A stretch of 48,466 nt of DNA from Escherichia phage vB_Eco_SLUR29, in the sequence record NC_054895.1; one strand, written 5' to 3'. Positions 11,134-40,824 of the stretch are shown piece after piece. Made by a program: the position numbers and the translations under genes. Below the pieces are notes generated by a model. That model was given only the letters and a program-made list of their open reading frames with translations, made no database searches and had not been told where the DNA came from. Position 1 is the stretch's first letter, and each line of letters starts with the position of its first letter.

Positions 11134-11354
11134 GTCAGGACGGTTTTTTTGAGCGCCTTCAAATGGCAGAAGATGCCGGGCTAAATAAAGAGTCGGCGCT
11201 TGAAGTGGCATATAAAATTAAGACTCTTGATGAGGCTTTAGGTGATATGGATATGGATCTTGAATCAAGCGCAATATTTGCAGATCCCACTATGATTGTT
11301 AATGATTGTGGATGCGATTTCGATCCTGGTTGTGCGCGCTGTTTTCCGTTTTGA
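11130..11354 (+). CDS. hypothetical protein with C-terminal Cys cluster (CGCDFDPGCARC)
   Basis: 74-aa ORF. Confidence 0.5.
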   Translation: MSQDGFFERLQMAEDAGLNKESALEVAYKIKTLDEALGDMDMDLESSAIFADPTMIVNDCGCDFDPGCARCFPF

Positions 11355-11358
11355 GGTA

Positions 11359-12075
11359 ATGACGATGTATAAAGGTTTAATATTCTCCCTATTTGATGGA
11401 TCTGGTAAAGCCGTTAAAGATTGGGCTGATAATGGCTATAAGTGCATTTGCTTTAATGCTGACGGCGGCGATCACGGTGATTACCAGTCAGTGCGCATAC
11501 AGCATGAGAATATCGAATACGTTAACGTCTGGATTGATGAAAGATTTTACCACCGCGCGCGCTGGGAGGAATGGGGCATTCCTGACTTTATTATGGCATT
11601 TCCGCCGTGCACTGACCTTGCAAATAGCGGATCTCGCCATTGGGCCAAAAAACGCCTTGAGAATCCATCTTTCCAGGATGAGGCCGCCGACACTTGCAGG
11701 ATCGCGGCTGATATAGCTGATTATTTCGGTGTTCCTTACATGATCGAAAATCCGGTTGGCAAGTTGTCAACGTTATGGCGAAAGCCTGATTATACGTTCC
11801 ATCCGTGCGATTACGCTGGCTATCTGCCGGAAGATGATAAACATCCCGACTTCCCTGATATTATTCCGGCGCGGGATCGCTATTTTAAGAAAACATGCCT
11901 CTGGACTGGCAACGGCTTTGTTATTCCTCCACGCGCTTTAATCCTGCCGAAAGAGAAAGACAAAGATAATCCAGGCTGGGCCAAAACTGGCGGCAAGTCA
12001 TCGCGCACAAAGATGATCCGCTCCCTCACTCCGCGCGGCTTTGCTCGCGCCGTCTTTGAGTCAAACTCAAAATAG
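11359..12075 (+). CDS. DNA (cytosine-5)-methyltransferase-like
   Basis: motif I FSLFDGSG, PPC catalytic-Cys motif (FPPCTDL), ENP/ENV-like motif (MIENPVGK); TAG stop lies inside next 19-mer element. Confidence 0.65.
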   Translation: MTMYKGLIFSLFDGSGKAVKDWADNGYKCICFNADGGDHGDYQSVRIQHENIEYVNVWIDERFYHRARWEEWGIPDFIMAFPPCTDLANSGSRHWAKKRLENPSFQDEAADTCRIAADIADYFGVPYMIENPVGKLSTLWRKPDYTFHPCDYAGYLPEDDKHPDFPDIIPARDRYFKKTCLWTGNGFVIPPRALILPKEKDKDNPGWAKTGGKSSRTKMIRSLTPRGFARAVFESNSK

Positions 12076-18409: not shown

Positions 18410-19135
18410 TTAACTCCGTTTGCGTGCTCGGCGTTCGGTAACAGAAGGACAAATATCGCTGATCTTAACGTATCGCGTTTTCTGCTCTTCGCCTTCTTTA
18501 AGTTTACGCATGACAAAAATCACGCTCCCCTTATTGTTGCCCTGTACAGGCTCGCCAGTCAATCCAGACACAAAGGCGATTCTTCCGGTGCGGGAATATT
18601 CCACTCCCCCCTCTTCGTAAACCTCGCCAGTGATCCAGATGATTTCAGCCGCGTTTTTCTGCGCCTCATAAAACCATGCTGTAGAGTTGTCGGATGGCAA
18701 CAAAACATCAATTTGGTTGTTGTGCTCCATTTGCTCAATTGCTTTCTTGATAAATGGAGTTGGGTTGCTGTACGGCGGGTTAAGCCATACGTGCTTGTTG
18801 CTACCCCACCAACGCTTTAAGCAGTTTGTTTCCTTGCTATAGAACTTCTCGCAAACTGCGTTTTCCTGGCTTGCTGCCGCGTCGAGATCGTATTCGCCAA
18901 ATTCTGATTCCATCCACTCCACGATCTCTTGAGGTGTGCTCCACATATCGCGCACAACGTCCGGCGTAGTGCTTCCAGCGTATCGGTTGCCGCTTACCTT
19001 ATAATATTGATTTGGCTTTACTGCCTGGTAATGGCCTCCAGTTGCAAGGGCATTCCCTATAAATGTTTCTCTCTCCAACTGCTCAAAGCTAACGAATGCG
19101 TCATGGGTGTCTTTATCTAAAATATCTTTAGCCAT
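18410..19135 (-). CDS. dam: DNA N6-adenine methyltransferase (Dam-like)
   Basis: NPPY catalytic motif (WLNPPYS); 241 aa; GGAGA SD. Confidence 0.75.
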   Translation of the reverse strand: MAKDILDKDTHDAFVSFEQLERETFIGNALATGGHYQAVKPNQYYKVSGNRYAGSTTPDVVRDMWSTPQEIVEWMESEFGEYDLDAAASQENAVCEKFYSKETNCLKRWWGSNKHVWLNPPYSNPTPFIKKAIEQMEHNNQIDVLLPSDNSTAWFYEAQKNAAEIIWITGEVYEEGGVEYSRTGRIAFVSGLTGEPVQGNNKGSVIFVMRKLKEGEEQKTRYVKISDICPSVTERRARKRS

Positions 19136-19199
19136 TTCATTTCTCCGCTATTAAAAGCTATCTCGTGTTATTGAATTATGGCGCAATCCATCGCGCCAG

Positions 19200-19218
19200 T
19201 TTTAACAAAAAGTGCTAT
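19200..19218 (-). promoter_or_regulatory. conserved early element, minus-strand copy, with stem-loop GGCGC/GCGCC
   Basis: reverse complement exact 19-mer followed by hairpin and CATAAT; contains TAG stop of 19215..19634; precedes Dam. Confidence 0.6.
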
Positions 19219-19634
19219 TTAAGCATGTATTCAATAGCCAACTTAAACTGATTAAATCCGTAGGCGACCGCAGCGAATCCTCCTAAGCTGCGAACTCGAC
19301 GCAAAAAAGCCCTTTGTTCATCGCTGACTGGTGATGCTTTACCATTGCCTGATTTATTCACTCGTTTGATCTCAATCGCTGCAAATGGGTATTTTCCGTT
19401 TAAACCAATCAGGATGATGAAATCGCTTACACCCTTAACCAAGCCGGACTGCTGATCAATCATCGCCGTTGCTTTAGACTTCTCATTCTCGTTTACCGTA
19501 TGCCACGCCAGCAAGTAAGGATGAGTATAAGTCAACCACTGAAAGCTATCTATCTGGTGATTAACTTCCTTTCTAGTGTCGGTTGGATCTCTTTCGTAAA
19601 ACTCAAGATAATCTCCTTTATCAGTTATAGCCAT
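19215..19634 (-). CDS. VRR-NUC-like PD-(D/E)xK nuclease
   Basis: 139 aa; D...E.K signature (GVSDFIIL...AIEIK); adjacent to helicase as is common for VRR-NUC. Confidence 0.55.
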   Translation of the reverse strand: MAITDKGDYLEFYERDPTDTRKEVNHQIDSFQWLTYTHPYLLAWHTVNENEKSKATAMIDQQSGLVKGVSDFIILIGLNGKYPFAAIEIKRVNKSGNGKASPVSDEQRAFLRRVRSLGGFAAVAYGFNQFKLAIEYMLK

Positions 19635-36352: not shown

Positions 36353-36709
36353 TTACTGCATTGATGTAAATTGTTCCGTAAAAGTGGCTTTTACTTCCTG
36401 AACGGTTGGCGACAATGGAGTAAGGCCGACGCTACCGCTTTTCACCCTAAACAATCCAGGGCTTCCATCTGGCATGATCCACAAGAAAGGTTTTAGCCTG
36501 TGCTCATTCAGGAACTTGACAACATCTCTGTAATCAAGCCCAGCGTAAACAATGCTGAACTCTCGCCGGATTGTGTTAAAACCTCCAGATGCTACCTGTG
36601 TGTATCCGTTACCGAATGCAATCTCTCGATCGTTATTCGATGACGTCATGGCCCCGCCACCATTCTGAACCTGCGTACACCACTTAAACTGATCCAGCTT
36701 CATTATCAA
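36353..36709 (-). CDS. minor tail protein M-like
   Basis: 118 aa; ATGA coupling to tape measure; synteny. Confidence 0.7.
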   Translation of the reverse strand: MIMKLDQFKWCTQVQNGGGAMTSSNNDREIAFGNGYTQVASGGFNTIRREFSIVYAGLDYRDVVKFLNEHRLKPFLWIMPDGSPGLFRVKSGSVGLTPLSPTVQEVKATFTEQFTSMQ

Positions 36710-39387
36710 CCTCTCTTGCTCATAACAAATTCGTAAACCTCGCCGCCCTGCATACAGGAACGTTTAATCATATCAGTAAAGATCATCTTAACACCAGTTT
36801 CGATGCCCTTCGGATCGTTTCCGTTAGTGATGCTAACATCAATCCCGCCGATGTTAAATTGAGGTGCTCCACCAGTTACAGCGCCACCGCCAGTATAGCC
36901 GGAACTACCAACAACGCCGCCGTTAGCATAGCCTCGCATCATGCGGTACAAGTTTCCTACCCCGATACGCTGCGTCGCCTCCTTCGTCATGACAAATTCA
37001 CCTTTATGGACAATTCCGGCTGGCTCATACTTCCCGCCGTCGCCAGTGTATCCACCGCCAGCAAATCCGCCAATATTCTTAAGCAAGCTCCCCATCGTCC
37101 AGGTTTGACCACCCATCAGGCCAGATAACGCATTAAAGACAACCATTTTCGTAATCATCTGAATAATCATTTTGATGATAGCCGTCGAGAAGTCTTTAAA
37201 GTTTGCCTTGCCAGTAGCGATAAAATTCGCTAATTGGTTTGTAAGGCCGTTTAACGCCTCGCTTGCGATCTGCTGAACATTGCCATAGGCATTGTTTGCA
37301 TCTTCCGCGAACATCTCCCATGCGTTTTTTGCTCCTGCCAACCAGTTGCCTTGAACCTCATCCTGTGTCTGATAATACTGCTTAAGTTTCGCCTCCATTT
37401 GCTGAAAAACTTCATCGCTAACGCTTCCGCCTTGCGCCTCGTAGTCGGTGCGCAGCTTGCGTAACTCTAGCTCACGCTCGATCTGCTTTTCAGTGTAGCC
37501 AAGTTGCTTAAGGCCAAGCACATCAATAGCCGCCTGAGTTTCACGGATAAACTTAATGCTATCTTGCTCCAGCTTGTTTTTGCGCTCCTGTAAAACAATC
37601 TGATCCCCTAGCTCCGCTTTTTGCCTTGCCATTTCAAGAACGGCTTTTTGCTCGTTTAGTAGCGCCTGTTCCGCTCCGGTCAATTTACGCTTGCTCTGCG
37701 CTTCCTCCAGGATCTCGATCTGCTTTTCGATACTCCATAATGATTTACGCTGGCGAGAAATAACATCGTTAACAGTGCGATGCTCTTTAAGCATCTCCAG
37801 TTGCGCTTTTAAAACGTACAACTCTTTATCAAGCTGCTCAGTCGGGCCGCGAACTATTCCACCTTTAGCCTCTTTCTTTTTCTGCTCCTGCTTCTTGATT
37901 TCCTCAAGCTCTTTGCGCCTAAACTCCACGTTTTCAGCCGCGCGCTTTTTCAGTTCTTCATCAGCCGAACGCGCCACATTTTTCTGATCCTCAATAGCTT
38001 TGTTTAAAGCCTCCTGTGCTGCGCGCACTCTGTTTAAGGCCAGGTTTTCTTTGTCGATTCGCTCCGCTCGTTCCGCCATGTCCTTATTCGCATCTTTTAC
38101 GACCTTTCCAATGTCTTCATAAGTGTTAAGTGCAAACTTAAGCATAGGGTTAACATAGCCAAGCTCCTTACCTAACAGGCCGCCGGACGGGGAAGCGTAA
38201 TCACGCTTCGCTTTCAAAACCTCATACCACGAATCGCCCAACTCAAGGACTTTGTTTTTGTGGTTTGCAATTTCGTTATTCAAGCTGACAAAGCTAGACG
38301 CGCCCTTGTACTCGTTGACTTTCTTTTTTGCGTCATCATAAGTCATGCCAACGTCAACCAGTTTTTTAATCGCCTCGCTCGCGCCGTCTTTCGTGGTGAT
38401 GTAAGCCTTTGCAAGATCTTCGGCGCTTTCGCCTGTCTTGTCGGAAAGCTCCTGTATTCCGGTAGCAATCTTTTCGGCAAAATCACCAGTCAAGCCAGTT
38501 GTTTCCTGAACGGTTTTTTTAATTGCCTCAAACTCTGTCTGTGTTTTGTAGGCATTATATGCAGCAATTGCCAGCGTACCGGAAAGCAAGCCAAACGCCA
38601 CGTTTACCGGATTCAGGAAAGATAGCAACGCTTTTAAAGCATTGGATGCGCCACCAAAAGAATCCTTAATCTGTCCGCCCTGCTGGATTGCGACCAACCA
38701 AACAGGCATTCCAGAAGCAAGTGAAGTCACCACGTCTGTGATCTGCATTGGCAATTGCGCCATTGCTTGTTTGTATTGGCCCGTAGAAATTCCAAGTTTT
38801 TGGATCTGCTTTTCCTGCTCTTTCAGCCTTGCGATGTAAGGCGCTGCCTCCTGGCTAACACCAAGCTGTGCCGCTTTCATTTCCAGCAATTCAGACTTGC
38901 TTTTTCCGGCTGCTTCTTCCTGCTCACGCAAAGCCTGGACGAATTTTTTAGCCTCTTCCGCTGCACGCGCTTTGTTCTTTGATTCCTCAAGCGCCGCGCG
39001 GCCTTCCTCCGTCATCGCTTTTTTTGTTGCGATCAGCTTGTTTTGCTGCGTCTCAAGAATTGATCCAAGCTCAAAAAAAGTCTCATCAGGAACAATGCCC
39101 TTTTTCCATAGCGCATCAAGCTGTGTCGCTGCCTTTCGCAGCTTATCCATCTTTGACGCGGTGGGATCAATTGACTCCTGGATTTTCTTAAATTCTGCTT
39201 TCTGGCGCGCCAGTTCTTCGGCAAACTGTTTTGCTTGCTGTCGCGCCACAACCTCAGAATCAACAAATTCATTAACGCTTTTTTTTGCGTCGTCGTTTGC
39301 CTTCTTGAATTGCTGCAATGATTTAACAGCATTGTTGACCTGCGACACGTCAACGCCTAGCGTTAGGCCAGCGTATTTTTCAGCCAT
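36706..39387 (-). CDS. tail tape measure protein
   Basis: 893 aa, long coiled-coil-rich, Gly-rich C-terminus; follows G/G-T chaperone. Confidence 0.85.
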   Translation of the reverse strand: MAEKYAGLTLGVDVSQVNNAVKSLQQFKKANDDAKKSVNEFVDSEVVARQQAKQFAEELARQKAEFKKIQESIDPTASKMDKLRKAATQLDALWKKGIVPDETFFELGSILETQQNKLIATKKAMTEEGRAALEESKNKARAAEEAKKFVQALREQEEAAGKSKSELLEMKAAQLGVSQEAAPYIARLKEQEKQIQKLGISTGQYKQAMAQLPMQITDVVTSLASGMPVWLVAIQQGGQIKDSFGGASNALKALLSFLNPVNVAFGLLSGTLAIAAYNAYKTQTEFEAIKKTVQETTGLTGDFAEKIATGIQELSDKTGESAEDLAKAYITTKDGASEAIKKLVDVGMTYDDAKKKVNEYKGASSFVSLNNEIANHKNKVLELGDSWYEVLKAKRDYASPSGGLLGKELGYVNPMLKFALNTYEDIGKVVKDANKDMAERAERIDKENLALNRVRAAQEALNKAIEDQKNVARSADEELKKRAAENVEFRRKELEEIKKQEQKKKEAKGGIVRGPTEQLDKELYVLKAQLEMLKEHRTVNDVISRQRKSLWSIEKQIEILEEAQSKRKLTGAEQALLNEQKAVLEMARQKAELGDQIVLQERKNKLEQDSIKFIRETQAAIDVLGLKQLGYTEKQIERELELRKLRTDYEAQGGSVSDEVFQQMEAKLKQYYQTQDEVQGNWLAGAKNAWEMFAEDANNAYGNVQQIASEALNGLTNQLANFIATGKANFKDFSTAIIKMIIQMITKMVVFNALSGLMGGQTWTMGSLLKNIGGFAGGGYTGDGGKYEPAGIVHKGEFVMTKEATQRIGVGNLYRMMRGYANGGVVGSSGYTGGGAVTGGAPQFNIGGIDVSITNGNDPKGIETGVKMIFTDMIKRSCMQGGEVYEFVMSKRG

Positions 39388-39404: not shown

Positions 39405-39429
39405 TTAAAAAAAGCGCCTCGCGGCGCTT
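39405..39429 (-). terminator. intercistronic hairpin plus U-tract upstream of tape measure gene
   Basis: minus-strand AGCGCCGCGAGGCGCT followed by TTTTTTT. Confidence 0.45.
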
Positions 39430-39754
39430 ATGTTTTGTTTGAATGAATCATTTCTAGCGCCTTTTGTTCCATGATGCGCAAATCATTTAGCGCCATCTCC
39501 CGATCCTCAATCTTGTAAATGTCAAAAAGCATAGGCAAAACGTTATAGTCGAACCCATACACACTGCCGCTAGTCGATCTCCATTGCGTCTGCATGGCGC
39601 AAAATAGATCCCAAGATTGAAACATTGATTCATCAAAAATTACCTCCGGCGGATCCTCCCCTTCGTAGTCTGAACGGGATAGGCCGACGGCCTCTAATTG
39701 TGCGTCAGTTGGCGGCTTGAGGTAAAACAGGTAAACCGCCCGCTTTAGTTTTTT
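39428..39754 (-). CDS. tail assembly chaperone G-T, -1 frameshift extension
   Basis: -1 frame open from slippery site to stop at 39428 with no in-frame ATG/SD; joins annotated 65-aa ORF frame. Confidence 0.5.
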   Translation of the reverse strand, partial: KKLKRAVYLFYLKPPTDAQLEAVGLSRSDYEGEDPPEVIFDESMFQSWDLFCAMQTQWRSTSGSVYGFDYNVLPMLFDIYKIEDREMALNDLRIMEQKALEMIHSNKT

Positions 39755-40062
39755 ACCCGCTGCCCCGCAAGTGCTTTCATATAATGACCAGTCAGCGATA
39801 ATGACGCAGACGGGTAATAATCCAGCAATTTAGCAACGTTTTCCTCGTTAAATTCATCTTCCAGATCCCAACCGGAAGCAAGGAAGGTGATCATTTCTAC
39901 GTCGCTCATCGGCTTTTCTGCCGTGTATCGTTCGTGAATTTCGCTTGCCTTCTTGTGGCGCACGGTAAAAACAATAACTTGCTCATCACCATTTGGAAGC
40001 ACGAAAGAAACAGGCAGCTTAAAATCAGGCAGTGGGCCTAACGTTAGTTTCATCTTTGCCAT
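39745..40062 (-). CDS. tail assembly chaperone G-like
   Basis: 105 aa between major tail and tape measure genes; AAGGAG SD. Confidence 0.65.
   Translation of the reverse strand: MAKMKLTLGPLPDFKLPVSFVLPNGDEQVIVFTVRHKKASEIHERYTAEKPMSDVEMITFLASGWDLEDEFNEENVAKLLDYYPSASLSLTGHYMKALAGQRVKN
39748..39754 (-). other. putative -1 programmed ribosomal frameshift slippery heptamer A_AAA_AAC
   Basis: last codons of G are GTA AAA AAC TAA; X_XXY_YYZ pattern in frame; analogous to lambda G/G-T. Confidence 0.5.
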
Positions 40063-40076
40063 CTTAAGATCTCCTT

Positions 40077-40095
40077 ATAGCACTTTTTGTTAAAA
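40077..40095 (+). promoter_or_regulatory. exact 19-mer copy in plus orientation inside leftward structural operon
   Basis: ATAGCACTTTTTGTTAAAA; TAGATT 22 nt after TTGTTA; about 45 nt before terminator at 40141; its reverse complement abuts SD of G gene. Confidence 0.45.
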
Positions 40096-40132
40096 GTGGA
40101 ATTAATTTATTTGATAGATTGATTTTACAGGA

Positions 40133-40160
40133 ATGAAAAAAGGGGCGCAACGCCCCTTGT
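40133..40160 (-). terminator. intrinsic terminator after major tail protein gene
   Basis: minus-strand GGGGCGTTGCGCCCCT followed by TTTTTTT. Confidence 0.7.
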
Positions 40161-40161
40161 T

Positions 40162-40824
40162 TTACTTAACGTCGGAAGGTAAGAACGTGAATCGGCCTTT
40201 CAGAGATACAGAGAGGGAAACAGTTTCTATTTCGTTCATAGTGGTTTGCGGAATGTCATTAAAAGACAATACGCCAGCCCAGCAACGCATCTCTTTAGCT
40301 TTCGGCACGTACATACGCAAAGCGGTTACGTCGCCGGATTCCTCAGCCTCGCGCAAGATAGGATAAATCGGGTTATCATATTCATGCGCGAAAGTGTAGG
40401 TAAGAGAAACTGCGCTCTTGTAGGTCGGTAACTGCTGCTCCTGGTCGTCAGCCAAACACTGATAAGTGTAATACTGTTGCTCGCCGCCGTCCTGCGCAAG
40501 ATCCTGTACGCAAGGAATCTCTACCCAAGATTTTACTTCTCGGAAAGTTGCGGTATTAGAACCAGCCGGAAAAACATTGGTGTCTTTCGTGCTTACACCC
40601 TCAAGAGTAACGCTTGCATCATCTGATACCTCCTTAACTCGAAGCACGCGACTAACAAGTTTGCCCCAGGAAGATGTTTCAATAAGAACATAAGCGCCTT
40701 TTTTGATGCTTTGAGTGTTTGCAGTCGTAAAAACAGGATCATCAGCATTTGAAATAGCCGTAGCCTGAATCGGATCACCCATATTAACGCCGATGAAAAT
40801 TTGAGAACCATTAGGCAAGTGCAT
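40162..40824 (-). CDS. major tail protein
   Basis: 220 aa; AGGAGG SD; position before chaperone/TMP; followed by strong terminator. Confidence 0.7.
   Translation of the reverse strand: MHLPNGSQIFIGVNMGDPIQATAISNADDPVFTTANTQSIKKGAYVLIETSSWGKLVSRVLRVKEVSDDASVTLEGVSTKDTNVFPAGSNTATFREVKSWVEIPCVQDLAQDGGEQQYYTYQCLADDQEQQLPTYKSAVSLTYTFAHEYDNPIYPILREAEESGDVTALRMYVPKAKEMRCWAGVLSFNDIPQTTMNEIETVSLSVSLKGRFTFLPSDVK

What the first reader, a model, noticed from the sequence alone, without database searches (positions are those of the whole stretch)
39428..40062. Predicted -1 programmed frameshift producing a G-T tail chaperone fusion
The G-like ORF ends ...GTA AAA AAC TAA, which gives the slippery heptamer A_AAA_AAC in frame (plus coordinates 39748-39754). 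The -1 frame is open from this site to 39428 and has no independent SD, so the 65-aa track ORF is best explained as the T extension. This mirrors the conserved G/G-T frameshift of lambda-like tail modules.
Basis: partly seen in the sequence, partly recalled or inferred. Interest (0 to 1): 0.45.

Follow-up and report, generated by a model that had tools for sequence, protein, structure and literature searches.

The report
Tail chaperone G/G-T programmed frameshift
This T1-like coliphage makes a short tail-assembly chaperone and, almost certainly, a longer version by letting a few ribosomes slip back one base at AAAAAAC; this is a well-known phage trick, real here but ordinary, although most database records for this phage family annotate it wrongly.

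Summary
On the minus strand, a 105-aa ORF (40062..39745, Pfam Phage_TAC_4) ends GTA AAA AAC TAA. This places A_AAA_AAC (39754..39748) in the X_XXY_YYZ phase, directly against the stop. The -1 frame runs 106 codons to 39428 and matches DUF1799.

Homology, Pfam coverage and third-position-dominated variation all begin at the slip site, 41 codons upstream of the ATG of the "65-aa ORF". That stretch has no ATG/GTG/TTG and no usable Shine-Dalgarno, and the ATG is not conserved.

Of 90 distinct related loci, 61 keep nnA_AAA_AAC directly followed by a stop, while neighbouring codons vary synonymously. One distant relative has G_GGA_AAC at the same spot.

The locus lies between the tail-tube and tape-measure genes, as lambda G/G-T does. 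However, G and T here belong to different sequence families from lambda's. No conserved stimulatory RNA structure was demonstrated.

The frameshift has already been called for T1-like phages (Stevie; Solomon, which has a joined CDS). T1's reference record and all inspected Warwickvirus records still split or omit T.

Verdict: a real, already known kind of feature. It is of low novelty but useful as an annotation correction. No experimental proof for this family was found.

The parts
39745..40062 (-). Gene G: tail assembly (tape measure) chaperone, 105 aa, 11.9 kDa, stop TAA at 39747..39745
40071..40076 (-). Shine-Dalgarno AAGGAG of G, 8 nt before ATG 40062; it serves both G and G-T
   Evidence: Read directly from the sequence.
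39748..39754 (-). Slippery heptamer A_AAA_AAC in X_XXY_YYZ phase, directly followed by the 0-frame stop
   Evidence: Retained as nnA_AAA_AAC plus stop in 61 of 90 distinct T-selected loci and in 3 of 3 divergent G-selected loci. No variation in GTAAAAAACTAA among 25 close relatives.
39428..39748 (-). T segment: -1 frame extension of 106 codons (CTA at 39748..39746 to ACA at 39433..39431, stop TAA at 39430..39428). The fusion G-T is 211 aa, 24.3 kDa
   Evidence: Translation. Pfam PF08809 DUF1799, E=1.5e-12, residues 23-101. PHROG 17368 matches the whole fusion. tblastn from residue 1 in 1113 records. Coding periodicity upstream of the ATG.
39428..39625 (-). The '65-aa ORF' as usually annotated: only the C-terminal 65 codons of T, not a separate gene
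   Evidence: No SD at working distance. The Met is not conserved: Thr in Webervirus, Asn in HK578. Homology and coding signal extend 41 codons upstream.
39711..39740 (-). Possible stimulatory hairpin (GGCGGUUU / AAGCCGCC, 14-nt loop) starting 7 nt after the heptamer; unproven
   Evidence: Present in the MFE fold but z is only -0.4 to -1.0. Kept in 7 of 9 lineages with no compensatory change; broken in the L020/L023 clade, which keeps the heptamer.
40140..40158 (-). Terminator-like hairpin between the tail tube gene and G
   Evidence: The equivalent site is annotated as a rho-independent terminator in T1 and Sip.
39412..39429 (-). Terminator-like hairpin that overlaps the T stop codon, upstream of the tape measure gene
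   Evidence: The equivalent site is annotated in T1, Sip, HK578 and Solomon.
40162..40824 (-). Upstream neighbour: tail tube (major tail) protein, 220 aa; inferred binding partner of the T domain
   Evidence: Pfam PF08813, E=6.7e-63.
36706..39387 (-). Downstream neighbour: tape measure protein, 893 aa; inferred binding partner of the G domain
   Evidence: Pfam PF06791, E=1.3e-36, and PF09718 Tape_meas_lam_C, E=4e-22.

Best explanation
The locus is the tail-assembly-chaperone pair of a T1-like siphovirus (Warwickvirus-like, Drexlerviridae). Ribosomes start at ATG 40062. Most of them terminate at TAA 39747..39745 and release the 105-aa chaperone G.

A minority slip back one base on A_AAA_AAC, with tRNA-Lys moving AAA to AAA and tRNA-Asn moving AAC to AAA. 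They then read CTA AAG CGG ... in the -1 frame and produce a 211-aa G-T protein that ends at 39428.

By analogy with lambda, the G part, present in both products, coats the tape measure protein. The T part (DUF1799) recruits the tail tube protein so that the tube polymerises around the tape measure. Neither product is expected in the finished virion. The low-efficiency heptamer sets a low G-T:G ratio.

Shown here: the anatomy, the coding status of the -1 segment, the lack of an independent start, conservation of the slip site, family membership and synteny.

Inferred: that slippage actually occurs, its efficiency, the identity of the residue at the junction, and the binding partners.
For: Anatomy and phase.

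Family matches: G is Phage_TAC_4 and T is DUF1799, with the DUF1799 match starting 19 codons upstream of the ATG. PHROG 17368 (213 positions) matches the 211-aa fusion over positions 1-209, E=5.6e-99.

Coding status: T homology starts at extension residue 1 in 1113 of 1138 phage records, and exactly at the base before the G stop in 88 of 90 distinct loci. The slip-to-ATG segment shows -1-frame coding periodicity equal to that of the rest of T.

No independent start: no start codon and no SD at working distance, and the ATG is not conserved.

Conservation: 61 of 90 loci keep nnA_AAA_AAC plus stop. The preceding residue is V, A or E but always has A at the third position. No locus uses AAG at that Lys codon, whereas the 37 other conserved G codons have synonymous diversity of 0.23-0.77. 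L028 has the alternative canonical heptamer G_GGA_AAC at the same position. G-selected loci at 46-51% identity have the same junction.

Precedent: curated frameshift joins exist in Solomon, whose 210-aa product is exactly the length predicted for a slip at the last codon, and in Scapp. The literature calls the frameshift in T1-like phages (PMC4319613, PMC8407766). A_AAA_AAC is low-efficiency in E. coli but is proven in IS1 (PMC4066793). Lambda needs about 30:1 G:GT (PMC5009743).

Synteny.
Against: I found no experimental detection of the fusion for this phage or for any Drexlerviridae member.

A_AAA_AAC is a poor shifter in E. coli (PMC4066793), and no conserved stimulator was demonstrated: the hairpin z-score is insignificant, there is no covariation, and the hairpin is broken in one clade. 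There is no Rfam match at the site.

23 Webervirus loci lack the full heptamer (GCA AAA GTy TAA), so the exact slip mechanism is not uniform across the family.

The T structural model is of only moderate confidence and gave no independent functional link.

G and T show no detectable sequence similarity to lambda G and T, so the binding roles rest on analogy.
Confidence: 0.9

Rival explanations
1. T is made from a fraction of mRNAs that carry one extra A, added by RNA polymerase slippage on the A6 run. Ordinary translation of those mRNAs then yields the same G-T fusion (...V-K-K-L-K-R...).
For: The slip site is a homopolymeric run of six A's. Adding one A gives exactly the -1 frame. Four related contigs differ in A-run length (5 A's), which shows the run is indel-prone at least during sequencing. 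The review PMC5009743 documents transcriptional slippage as an alternative route in IS elements and in dnaX of Thermus.
Against: Six A's is short. From general knowledge, efficient slippage by bacterial RNA polymerase needs roughly 8-9 or more identical bases.

Relatives with the same G/T arrangement have sites without a long homopolymer: G_GGA_AAC in L028, GAA AAG in Scapp, GCA AAA G in 23 Webervirus loci. Those sites suit ribosomal re-pairing but not polymerase slippage.

The conserved C at position 7 and the strict abutment of the stop are not required by this model.
Confidence: 0.04
2. The 65-aa ORF (39625..39428) is an independent small gene started at its own ATG, as annotated in JLBYU16, Sip, tunus, FritzSarasin and, with a different start, T1.
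For: It has an ATG and is called by gene finders. Four close relatives and T1 annotate a separate short CDS.
Against: There is no SD at 5-10 nt; the nearest GGAGG is 17 nt away, against 7-8 nt for neighbouring genes.

The Met is not conserved in Webervirus or HK578.

The 41 codons upstream are conserved as protein in the same frame, with coding periodicity, and are part of the DUF1799 and PHROG profiles.

Gene callers choose different starts in different relatives (ATG +122, TTG +50, GTG +104, ATG +20, TTG/GTG -79) or call nothing at all.
Confidence: 0.03
3. A stand-alone T of about 100-106 aa is made by termination-reinitiation at the G stop, or by initiation at a non-canonical codon near the junction, without fusion to G.
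For: The G stop and the start of T homology coincide to the base in 88 of 90 loci, which would also suit tight translational coupling. HK578's depositors annotated gp16 as starting at the last base of the G stop.
Against: No ATG, GTG or TTG lies in the -1 frame within 82 nt upstream or 122 nt downstream of the stop in this window. No SD precedes the junction.

Coupling would not explain selection for nnA_AAA_AAC at synonymous sites, or its replacement by another canonical heptamer, G_GGA_AAC.

In lambda, the function of T requires covalent linkage to G (PMC5009743).
Confidence: 0.03

Closest known systems
Bacteriophage lambda gpG / gpGT (-1 frameshift at G_GGA_AAG; Levin 1993; Xu, Hendrix & Duda 2004, 2013, 2014, as summarised in PMC5009743)
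   Same: Two overlapping ORFs lie between the major tail protein and tape measure genes. The second ORF is in the -1 frame and has no start of its own. An in-phase X_XXY_YYZ heptamer sits near the end of G. The short product is expected to be abundant and the fusion rare. The tape measure protein carries a lambda-type C-terminal domain.
   Different: There is no detectable sequence similarity: lambda is PF06894/PF06223, this locus is PF08748/PF08809, and hhalign gives probability 0.6%.

The heptamer is A_AAA_AAC, which uses tRNA-Asn in the A site and is weak in E. coli, rather than G_GGA_AAG.

The 0-frame stop abuts the heptamer, whereas in lambda it lies 5 codons downstream.

G is 105 aa against 140, and T is 106 aa against 144.
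Tape measure chaperone frameshift annotated in the T1-like phages Klebsiella phage Solomon (MT701592, PMC8407766) and Citrobacter phage Stevie (PMC4319613)
   Same: Same virus family and the same Pfam families. Solomon has GCA AAA AAC TAA at the junction and a joined CDS whose 210-aa product equals G plus the -1 extension from the last codon.
   Different: It is a different genus, at 53-54% T identity. In both cases the frameshift is a bioinformatic call, not an experimental one. Stevie's junction was not inspected here.
IS1 insA-insB' frameshift at A_AAA_AAC
   Same: The heptamer is identical and works in the same host. It is a low-efficiency site, a proven -1 frameshift, and has no established stimulator (PMC4066793).
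   Different: It is a transposase rather than a phage assembly factor, with an unrelated protein context. I did not verify whether a stop abuts the heptamer in IS1.
Structurally defined tail assembly chaperones: HK97 gp13 (2OB9), Rbstp2171 (3FGX), YqbN (3KLU) (Pell et al. 2013, via PMC9603447)

Membership tests
Conserved G/G-T tail chaperone frameshift system of long-tailed phages | Two ORFs located between the major tail (tube) protein gene and the tape measure gene | tested here: met
   Order on the minus strand: terminator protein PF13554, tube PF08813, G, T, tape measure PF06791+PF09718.
Conserved G/G-T tail chaperone frameshift system of long-tailed phages | Downstream ORF overlaps the end of the upstream ORF in the -1 frame and lacks its own start signals | tested here: met
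   The -1 frame is open for 82 nt before the G stop and 106 codons after the slip. It has no ATG/GTG/TTG until 122 nt downstream, and no SD at 5-10 nt.
Conserved G/G-T tail chaperone frameshift system of long-tailed phages | In-phase slippery sequence within the overlap, conserved among relatives | tested here: met
   A_AAA_AAC at 39754..39748. 61 of 90 distinct loci keep it. An alternative heptamer, G_GGA_AAC, sits at the same place in L028.
Conserved G/G-T tail chaperone frameshift system of long-tailed phages | Both G and a G-T fusion are made, at a fixed low ratio, and both are needed for tail assembly | not testable with these tools
   This needs proteomics or genetics. No report for Drexlerviridae was found in the literature searches.
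Conserved G/G-T tail chaperone frameshift system of long-tailed phages | The G domain binds the tape measure protein and the T domain binds the major tail protein | not testable with these tools
   Inferred from lambda (PMC5009743).
Pfam PF08748 Phage_TAC_4 | Score above the gathering threshold over the full domain | tested here: met
   107.9 bits against a cutoff of 21.1, residues 1-105, E=5.2e-31.
Pfam PF08809 DUF1799 | Score above the gathering threshold over the full domain | tested here: met
   48 bits against a cutoff of 26, profile positions 3-80 of 80, extension residues 23-101.
Lambda gpG (PF06894) / gpT (PF06223) sequence families | Detectable sequence or profile similarity to lambda G and T | tested here: not met
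   Neither family appears in the Pfam scan of the window proteins. BLASTP finds no hit or E=0.3. hhalign gives probability 0.6%. Lambda's proteins hit only their own families.
Tail assembly chaperone fold (Pell et al. 2013) | Structural similarity to solved chaperones (2OB9, 3FGX, 3KLU) | tested here: inconclusive
-1 PRF cassette with a 3' stimulatory RNA structure or 5' SD-like stimulator | Conserved, unusually stable hairpin or pseudoknot 5-9 nt downstream, or an internal SD upstream | tested here: inconclusive
   A hairpin lies 7 nt downstream, but z is only -0.4 to -1.0, there is no covariation, and it is broken in one clade. The upstream G-rich codons are not conserved. There is no Rfam hit.
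Transcriptional slippage site | Homopolymer run long enough for RNA polymerase slippage, and conserved as a run | tested here: not met
   The run is only 6 A's. Relatives use G_GGA_AAC, GAA AAG or GCA AAA G at the same junction. The length threshold comes from general knowledge and was not measured here.

The most novel reading that the evidence does not exclude
The heptamer is strictly joined to the 0-frame stop in this family: zero intervening codons in all 61 heptamer-bearing loci, including the TGA variants, HK578 and L028, against 5 codons in lambda. This could mean the family uses a termination-coupled -1 shift. In that reading, slow release-factor action at the abutting stop, perhaps helped by the facultative hairpin 7 nt downstream, compensates for a heptamer that is intrinsically poor in E. 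coli (A_AAA_AAC, tRNA-Asn). The G-T:G ratio would then respond to release-factor or queuosine-tRNA status of the host.

The Webervirus loci that keep only A_AAA_G plus the stop one codon later would be a further step along the same line.
Probability: 0.15. Interest if true: 0.4.

Novelty: already known. Interest (0 to 1): 0.15.

Why it matters
Biologically this is the expected G/G-T tail chaperone frameshift, so it does not change understanding. Its practical value is in annotation.

The reference T1 record (ST40 plus a 55-aa ST39), all four Warwickvirus records inspected, and several Webervirus and Hanrivervirus records either split T into a truncated short ORF or leave about 350 nt empty. 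As a result, the 211-aa product is missing from protein databases for most of a family with hundreds of sequenced phages, many of them therapy candidates.

The family also offers a clean natural series of junction variants for studying how weak heptamers are used in enterobacteria: A_AAA_AAC, G_GGA_AAC, A_AAA_G and GAA_AAG, always against the stop.

Tried and rejected
1. Independent start for the 65-aa ORF: rejected. There is no SD, the ATG is not conserved, and the coding signal extends upstream.

2. The GGAGG at about 39646-39651 as an SD: it is 17 nt from ATG 39625. It is 9 nt from an out-of-frame ATG that heads a 49-aa ORF, but that ORF is interrupted by stops in relatives. Rejected.

3. 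Other slip sites in the 82-nt overlap (for example GCG GGG): not conserved in relatives, where the sequence is GCA GGG or GCT GGT.

4. Stimulatory hairpin: present, but not statistically or comparatively supported.

5. An in-frame natural G-T fusion in the five-A contigs L011 and L027: rejected. A 5-A run puts T in the +1 frame, and three of the four such contigs carry other indels.

6. A second AAAAAAC candidate at 11647-11653 (+): it lies in a spurious ORF inside a real 259-aa gene.

7. An independent GTG/TTG start at -79 in Webervirus: it has no SD, and the peptide it would add is poorly conserved.

8. Sequence search against PDB: no relatives.

9. T-domain model and BFVD search: these recovered only sequence relatives, with poor superposition.

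10. The first word-index protein search with the fusion returned only three T-frame ORF calls.

11. Two literature calls failed on term length, and PMC3907469 is not held.

Full report
WHAT IS THERE

The genes of this region run on the minus strand. A 105-aa ORF (40062..39745) with a strong Shine-Dalgarno (AAGGAG, 8 nt before the ATG) ends ...CAG CGG GTA AAA AAC TAA.

The seven bases AAAAAAC occupy 39754..39748, and the first A is the third base of the GTA codon. This is the X_XXY_YYZ phase needed for tandem -1 slippage.

The -1 frame is open from a TAA at 39832..39830 to a TAA at 39430..39428. Read from the C of AAC, it encodes 106 residues (LKRAVYLFYLKPPTDAQLEAVGLSRSDYEGEDPPEVIFDES-MFQSW...HSNKT). 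The fusion would be 211 aa, 24.3 kDa, against 11.9 kDa for G alone.

WHICH PHAGE

The window is 98.7% identical over this locus to Escherichia phage JLBYU16. It groups with Warwickvirus (Drexlerviridae, Tempevirinae), so it is a T1-like siphovirus.

IS THE -1 SEGMENT REALLY CODING, AND FROM WHERE?

Four independent results say it is translated from the slip site, not from the ATG at 39625.
- Pfam DUF1799 (E=1.5e-12) covers extension residues 23-101, whereas the ATG is at residue 42. PHROG 17368, a 213-position profile, matches the hypothetical fusion over residues 1-209 with E=5.6e-99.
- tblastn of the 106-aa extension finds 1138 phage records. 1113 of them cover at least 80% of the query, typically from residue 1 and down to about 30% identity. 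In 88 of 90 distinct related loci the match begins exactly at the base before the G stop.
- In an alignment of 25 distinct close relatives, nucleotide diversity by codon position in the -1 frame is 0.11/0.05/0.37 between the G stop and the ATG. It is 0.14/0.07/0.38 from the ATG to the T stop. This is the same purifying-selection signature in both parts.
- The Met at 39625 is not conserved: Thr in Webervirus, Asn in HK578.

In this window the -1 frame has no ATG, GTG or TTG anywhere from 39829 to 39626.

The tail tube, G and tape-measure genes all carry GGAG-type sites 7-8 nt before their ATGs. The nearest GGAGG to ATG 39625 is 17 nt away and is itself part of the conserved P-E-V codons.

Gene callers and depositors disagree about the start of 'T'. 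Choices include ATG +122, TTG +50, GTG +104, ATG +20 and TTG/GTG -79, or no gene at all. That is what one expects when there is no real start.

IS THE SLIP SITE UNDER SELECTION?

In the 25 close relatives, the twelve bases GTAAAAAACTAA show no variation, while the third positions of the five preceding codons all vary.

In 90 distinct loci selected through T only, the junctions are as follows:
- 61 have nnA AAA AAC followed immediately by a stop: GTA 43 (two of them with TGA), GCA 17, GAA 1. The residue before Lys changes (V, A or E), but its third base stays A.
- 23 Webervirus loci have GCA AAA GTy/GCC TAA.
- 4 have five A's.
- Scapp has GAA AAG TAT TAA.
- L028 has G_GGA_AAC TAA, another canonical heptamer at the identical position.

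No locus uses AAG for that Lys. In contrast, the 37 other conserved G codons have synonymous diversity of 0.23-0.77. The zero values for the last two codons are by construction, because that set was selected on the heptamer. The non-circular count is the one.

Three loci selected through G alone, at 46-51% identity, also show GTA AAA AAC TAA followed by a 104-109-aa DUF1799 extension.

CHANCE

The window has 70 in-phase XXXYYYZ heptamers in ORFs of at least 80 aa, with a median open -1 run of 10 codons. Every other case with a long extension is a spurious ORF nested in a real gene.

CONTEXT

Upstream are a tail terminator (PF13554) and the tail tube protein (PF08813). Downstream is the tape measure protein (PF06791 plus the lambda-type C-terminal domain PF09718).

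Terminator-like hairpins at 40158..40140 and 39429..39412 bracket the G/T unit. The second one overlaps the T stop. The same sites are annotated in T1 and other relatives.

G ITSELF

The T model is only moderately confident (pLDDT 68) and retrieved only sequence relatives.

MECHANISM

The best explanation is -1 programmed ribosomal frameshifting on A_AAA_AAC. Most ribosomes terminate and make G. A minority slip and make G-T.

Sharma et al. (PMC4066793) measured all heptamers in E. coli. They class A_AA.A_AA.C as low-efficiency, because the AAC-to-AAA re-pairing is poorly tolerated. They also note that it exceeds 0.1% without stimulators and is the proven IS1 shift site, with no established stimulator. 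A weak site fits a system that in lambda needs about 30 G per G-T (PMC5009743).

For stimulators, a hairpin (GGCGGUUU/AAGCCGCC) begins 7 nt after the heptamer. It is no more stable than shuffled sequence (z -0.4 to -1.0), shows no compensatory change, and is broken by synonymous changes in a clade that keeps the heptamer. There is no Rfam match at the site and the phage encodes no tRNAs.

The one invariant extra feature is that the stop directly abuts the heptamer. A pausing role for it is plausible from general knowledge of 'shifty stops', but it is untested here.

The functional roles, G on the tape measure and T recruiting the tube protein, are inferred from lambda (PMC5009743).

RIVALS

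Transcriptional slippage on A6 would give the same fusion. However, six A's is short, and relatives use sites without homopolymers.

An independent 65-aa gene and a reinitiated stand-alone T are both contradicted by the start-signal and conservation data above.

COMPARISON WITH WHAT IS KNOWN

The arrangement is that of lambda G/G-T: G_GGA_AAG, in phase, 5 codons before the G stop. But lambda's proteins are PF06894/PF06223 and show no significant similarity to these (BLASTP no hit or E=0.3; hhalign probability 0.6%). So it works like lambda G/G-T without being a sequence-family member.

Within T1-like phages the frameshift has already been called. [quoted passage not shown] Solomon's paper mentions it (PMC8407766). 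Solomon's record carries a joined CDS whose 210-aa product equals G plus the -1 extension, at a GCA AAA AAC TAA junction. The more distant DUF1799 phage Scapp also has a curated join.

By contrast, T1's reference record lists ST40 and a 55-aa ST39 separately although its junction is GCA AAA AAC TAA. JLBYU16, Sip, tunus and FritzSarasin list two CDSs. RAD2, PWKp19 and haarsle leave the T region unannotated.

VERDICT

The feature is real and belongs to an already known kind. Its novelty is low, and its main use is to correct annotation. Experimental confirmation in this family is still missing as far as I could find.

Noticed in passing
L072 (IMG/VR UViG_2974785742), L070, L027, L011=L083; junction at about locus position 1192-1204 or 1801-1813: Four distinct related contigs have only five A's (GTAAAAACTAA), which puts T in the +1 frame relative to G. 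L027, L070 and L011 have other indels or frame breaks nearby, so homopolymer sequencing error is likely. L072 has otherwise intact G and T, and could in principle reach T by a +1 slip on AAA_A.
   Followed up: partly
L029 (RAD2), L030 (PWKp19), L093-L113 and other Webervirus loci; junction just before the G stop: 23 distinct Webervirus loci have GCA AAA GTT/GTC/GCC TAA, with no full X_XXY_YYZ heptamer. Only the A_AAA tetramer remains, with the stop one codon later. Other Weberviruses (Solomon, F20-like) keep GCA AAA AAC TAA. The T frame and T homology are unchanged. The in-frame GTG/TTG at -79 has no SD, and the peptide it would add is poorly conserved.
   Followed up: partly
NC_005833 (T1) 18872-19506; OK272471, OU734268, OR912983, MZ501069; NC_055956, MZ634350, MN850600: The reference T1 record and most inspected Drexlerviridae records either annotate T as a truncated 55-65-aa ORF or leave about 350 nt between G and the tape measure gene unannotated. 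Automated names such as 'tail length tape measure protein' are applied to G and to the T fragment.
   Followed up: yes
window 39412-39429 and 40140-40158 (minus strand): Terminator-like hairpins bracket the G/T unit: 5 found in 1 kb against 1.1 expected. The downstream stem begins inside the T stop codon. Partial termination after the tube gene and after T could grade expression as tube > G/T > tape measure.
   Followed up: partly
window 40085-40169 (+ strand): A sub-threshold Rfam match to the Salmonella sRNA STnc50 (33.8 bits against a gathering score of 55, E=0.0009). It lies antisense to the phage genes and overlaps the terminator hairpin, so it is probably driven by the hairpin itself.
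   Followed up: no
window 11647-11653 (+ strand), ORF 11393..11716: A second in-phase AAAAAAC with a 140-codon open -1 frame. The 107-aa host ORF is a spurious overlap inside a real 259-aa gene (11296..12075), so this is not a frameshift candidate.
   Followed up: yes
window T residues 64-76 (about 39519-39557, minus strand) against lambda T residues 55-67: The most conserved T motif, YGFDYNVLPMLFD, aligns with lambda T's SGLTYTVLSLFFS. This is the only hhalign segment (13 columns, E=0.089) and it is not significant, but it could mark a shared tube-protein-binding element.
   Followed up: no
L062, L063 (IMG/VR UViG_3300045988_030853 and _032462): The junction reads GTA AAA AAC TGA. The stop codon identity changes while the heptamer and its abutment to the stop are kept.
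   Followed up: no
L011 (IMG/VR UViG_2974632794), about 300 nt downstream of the junction: The T reading frame runs ...YKVEDREM and then directly into the tape-measure N-terminus (SEQYAGLTLGVDVSQ...). This suggests a deletion that fuses the end of T to the tape measure gene, in a contig that also has the five-A run. It may be an assembly artefact.
   Followed up: no
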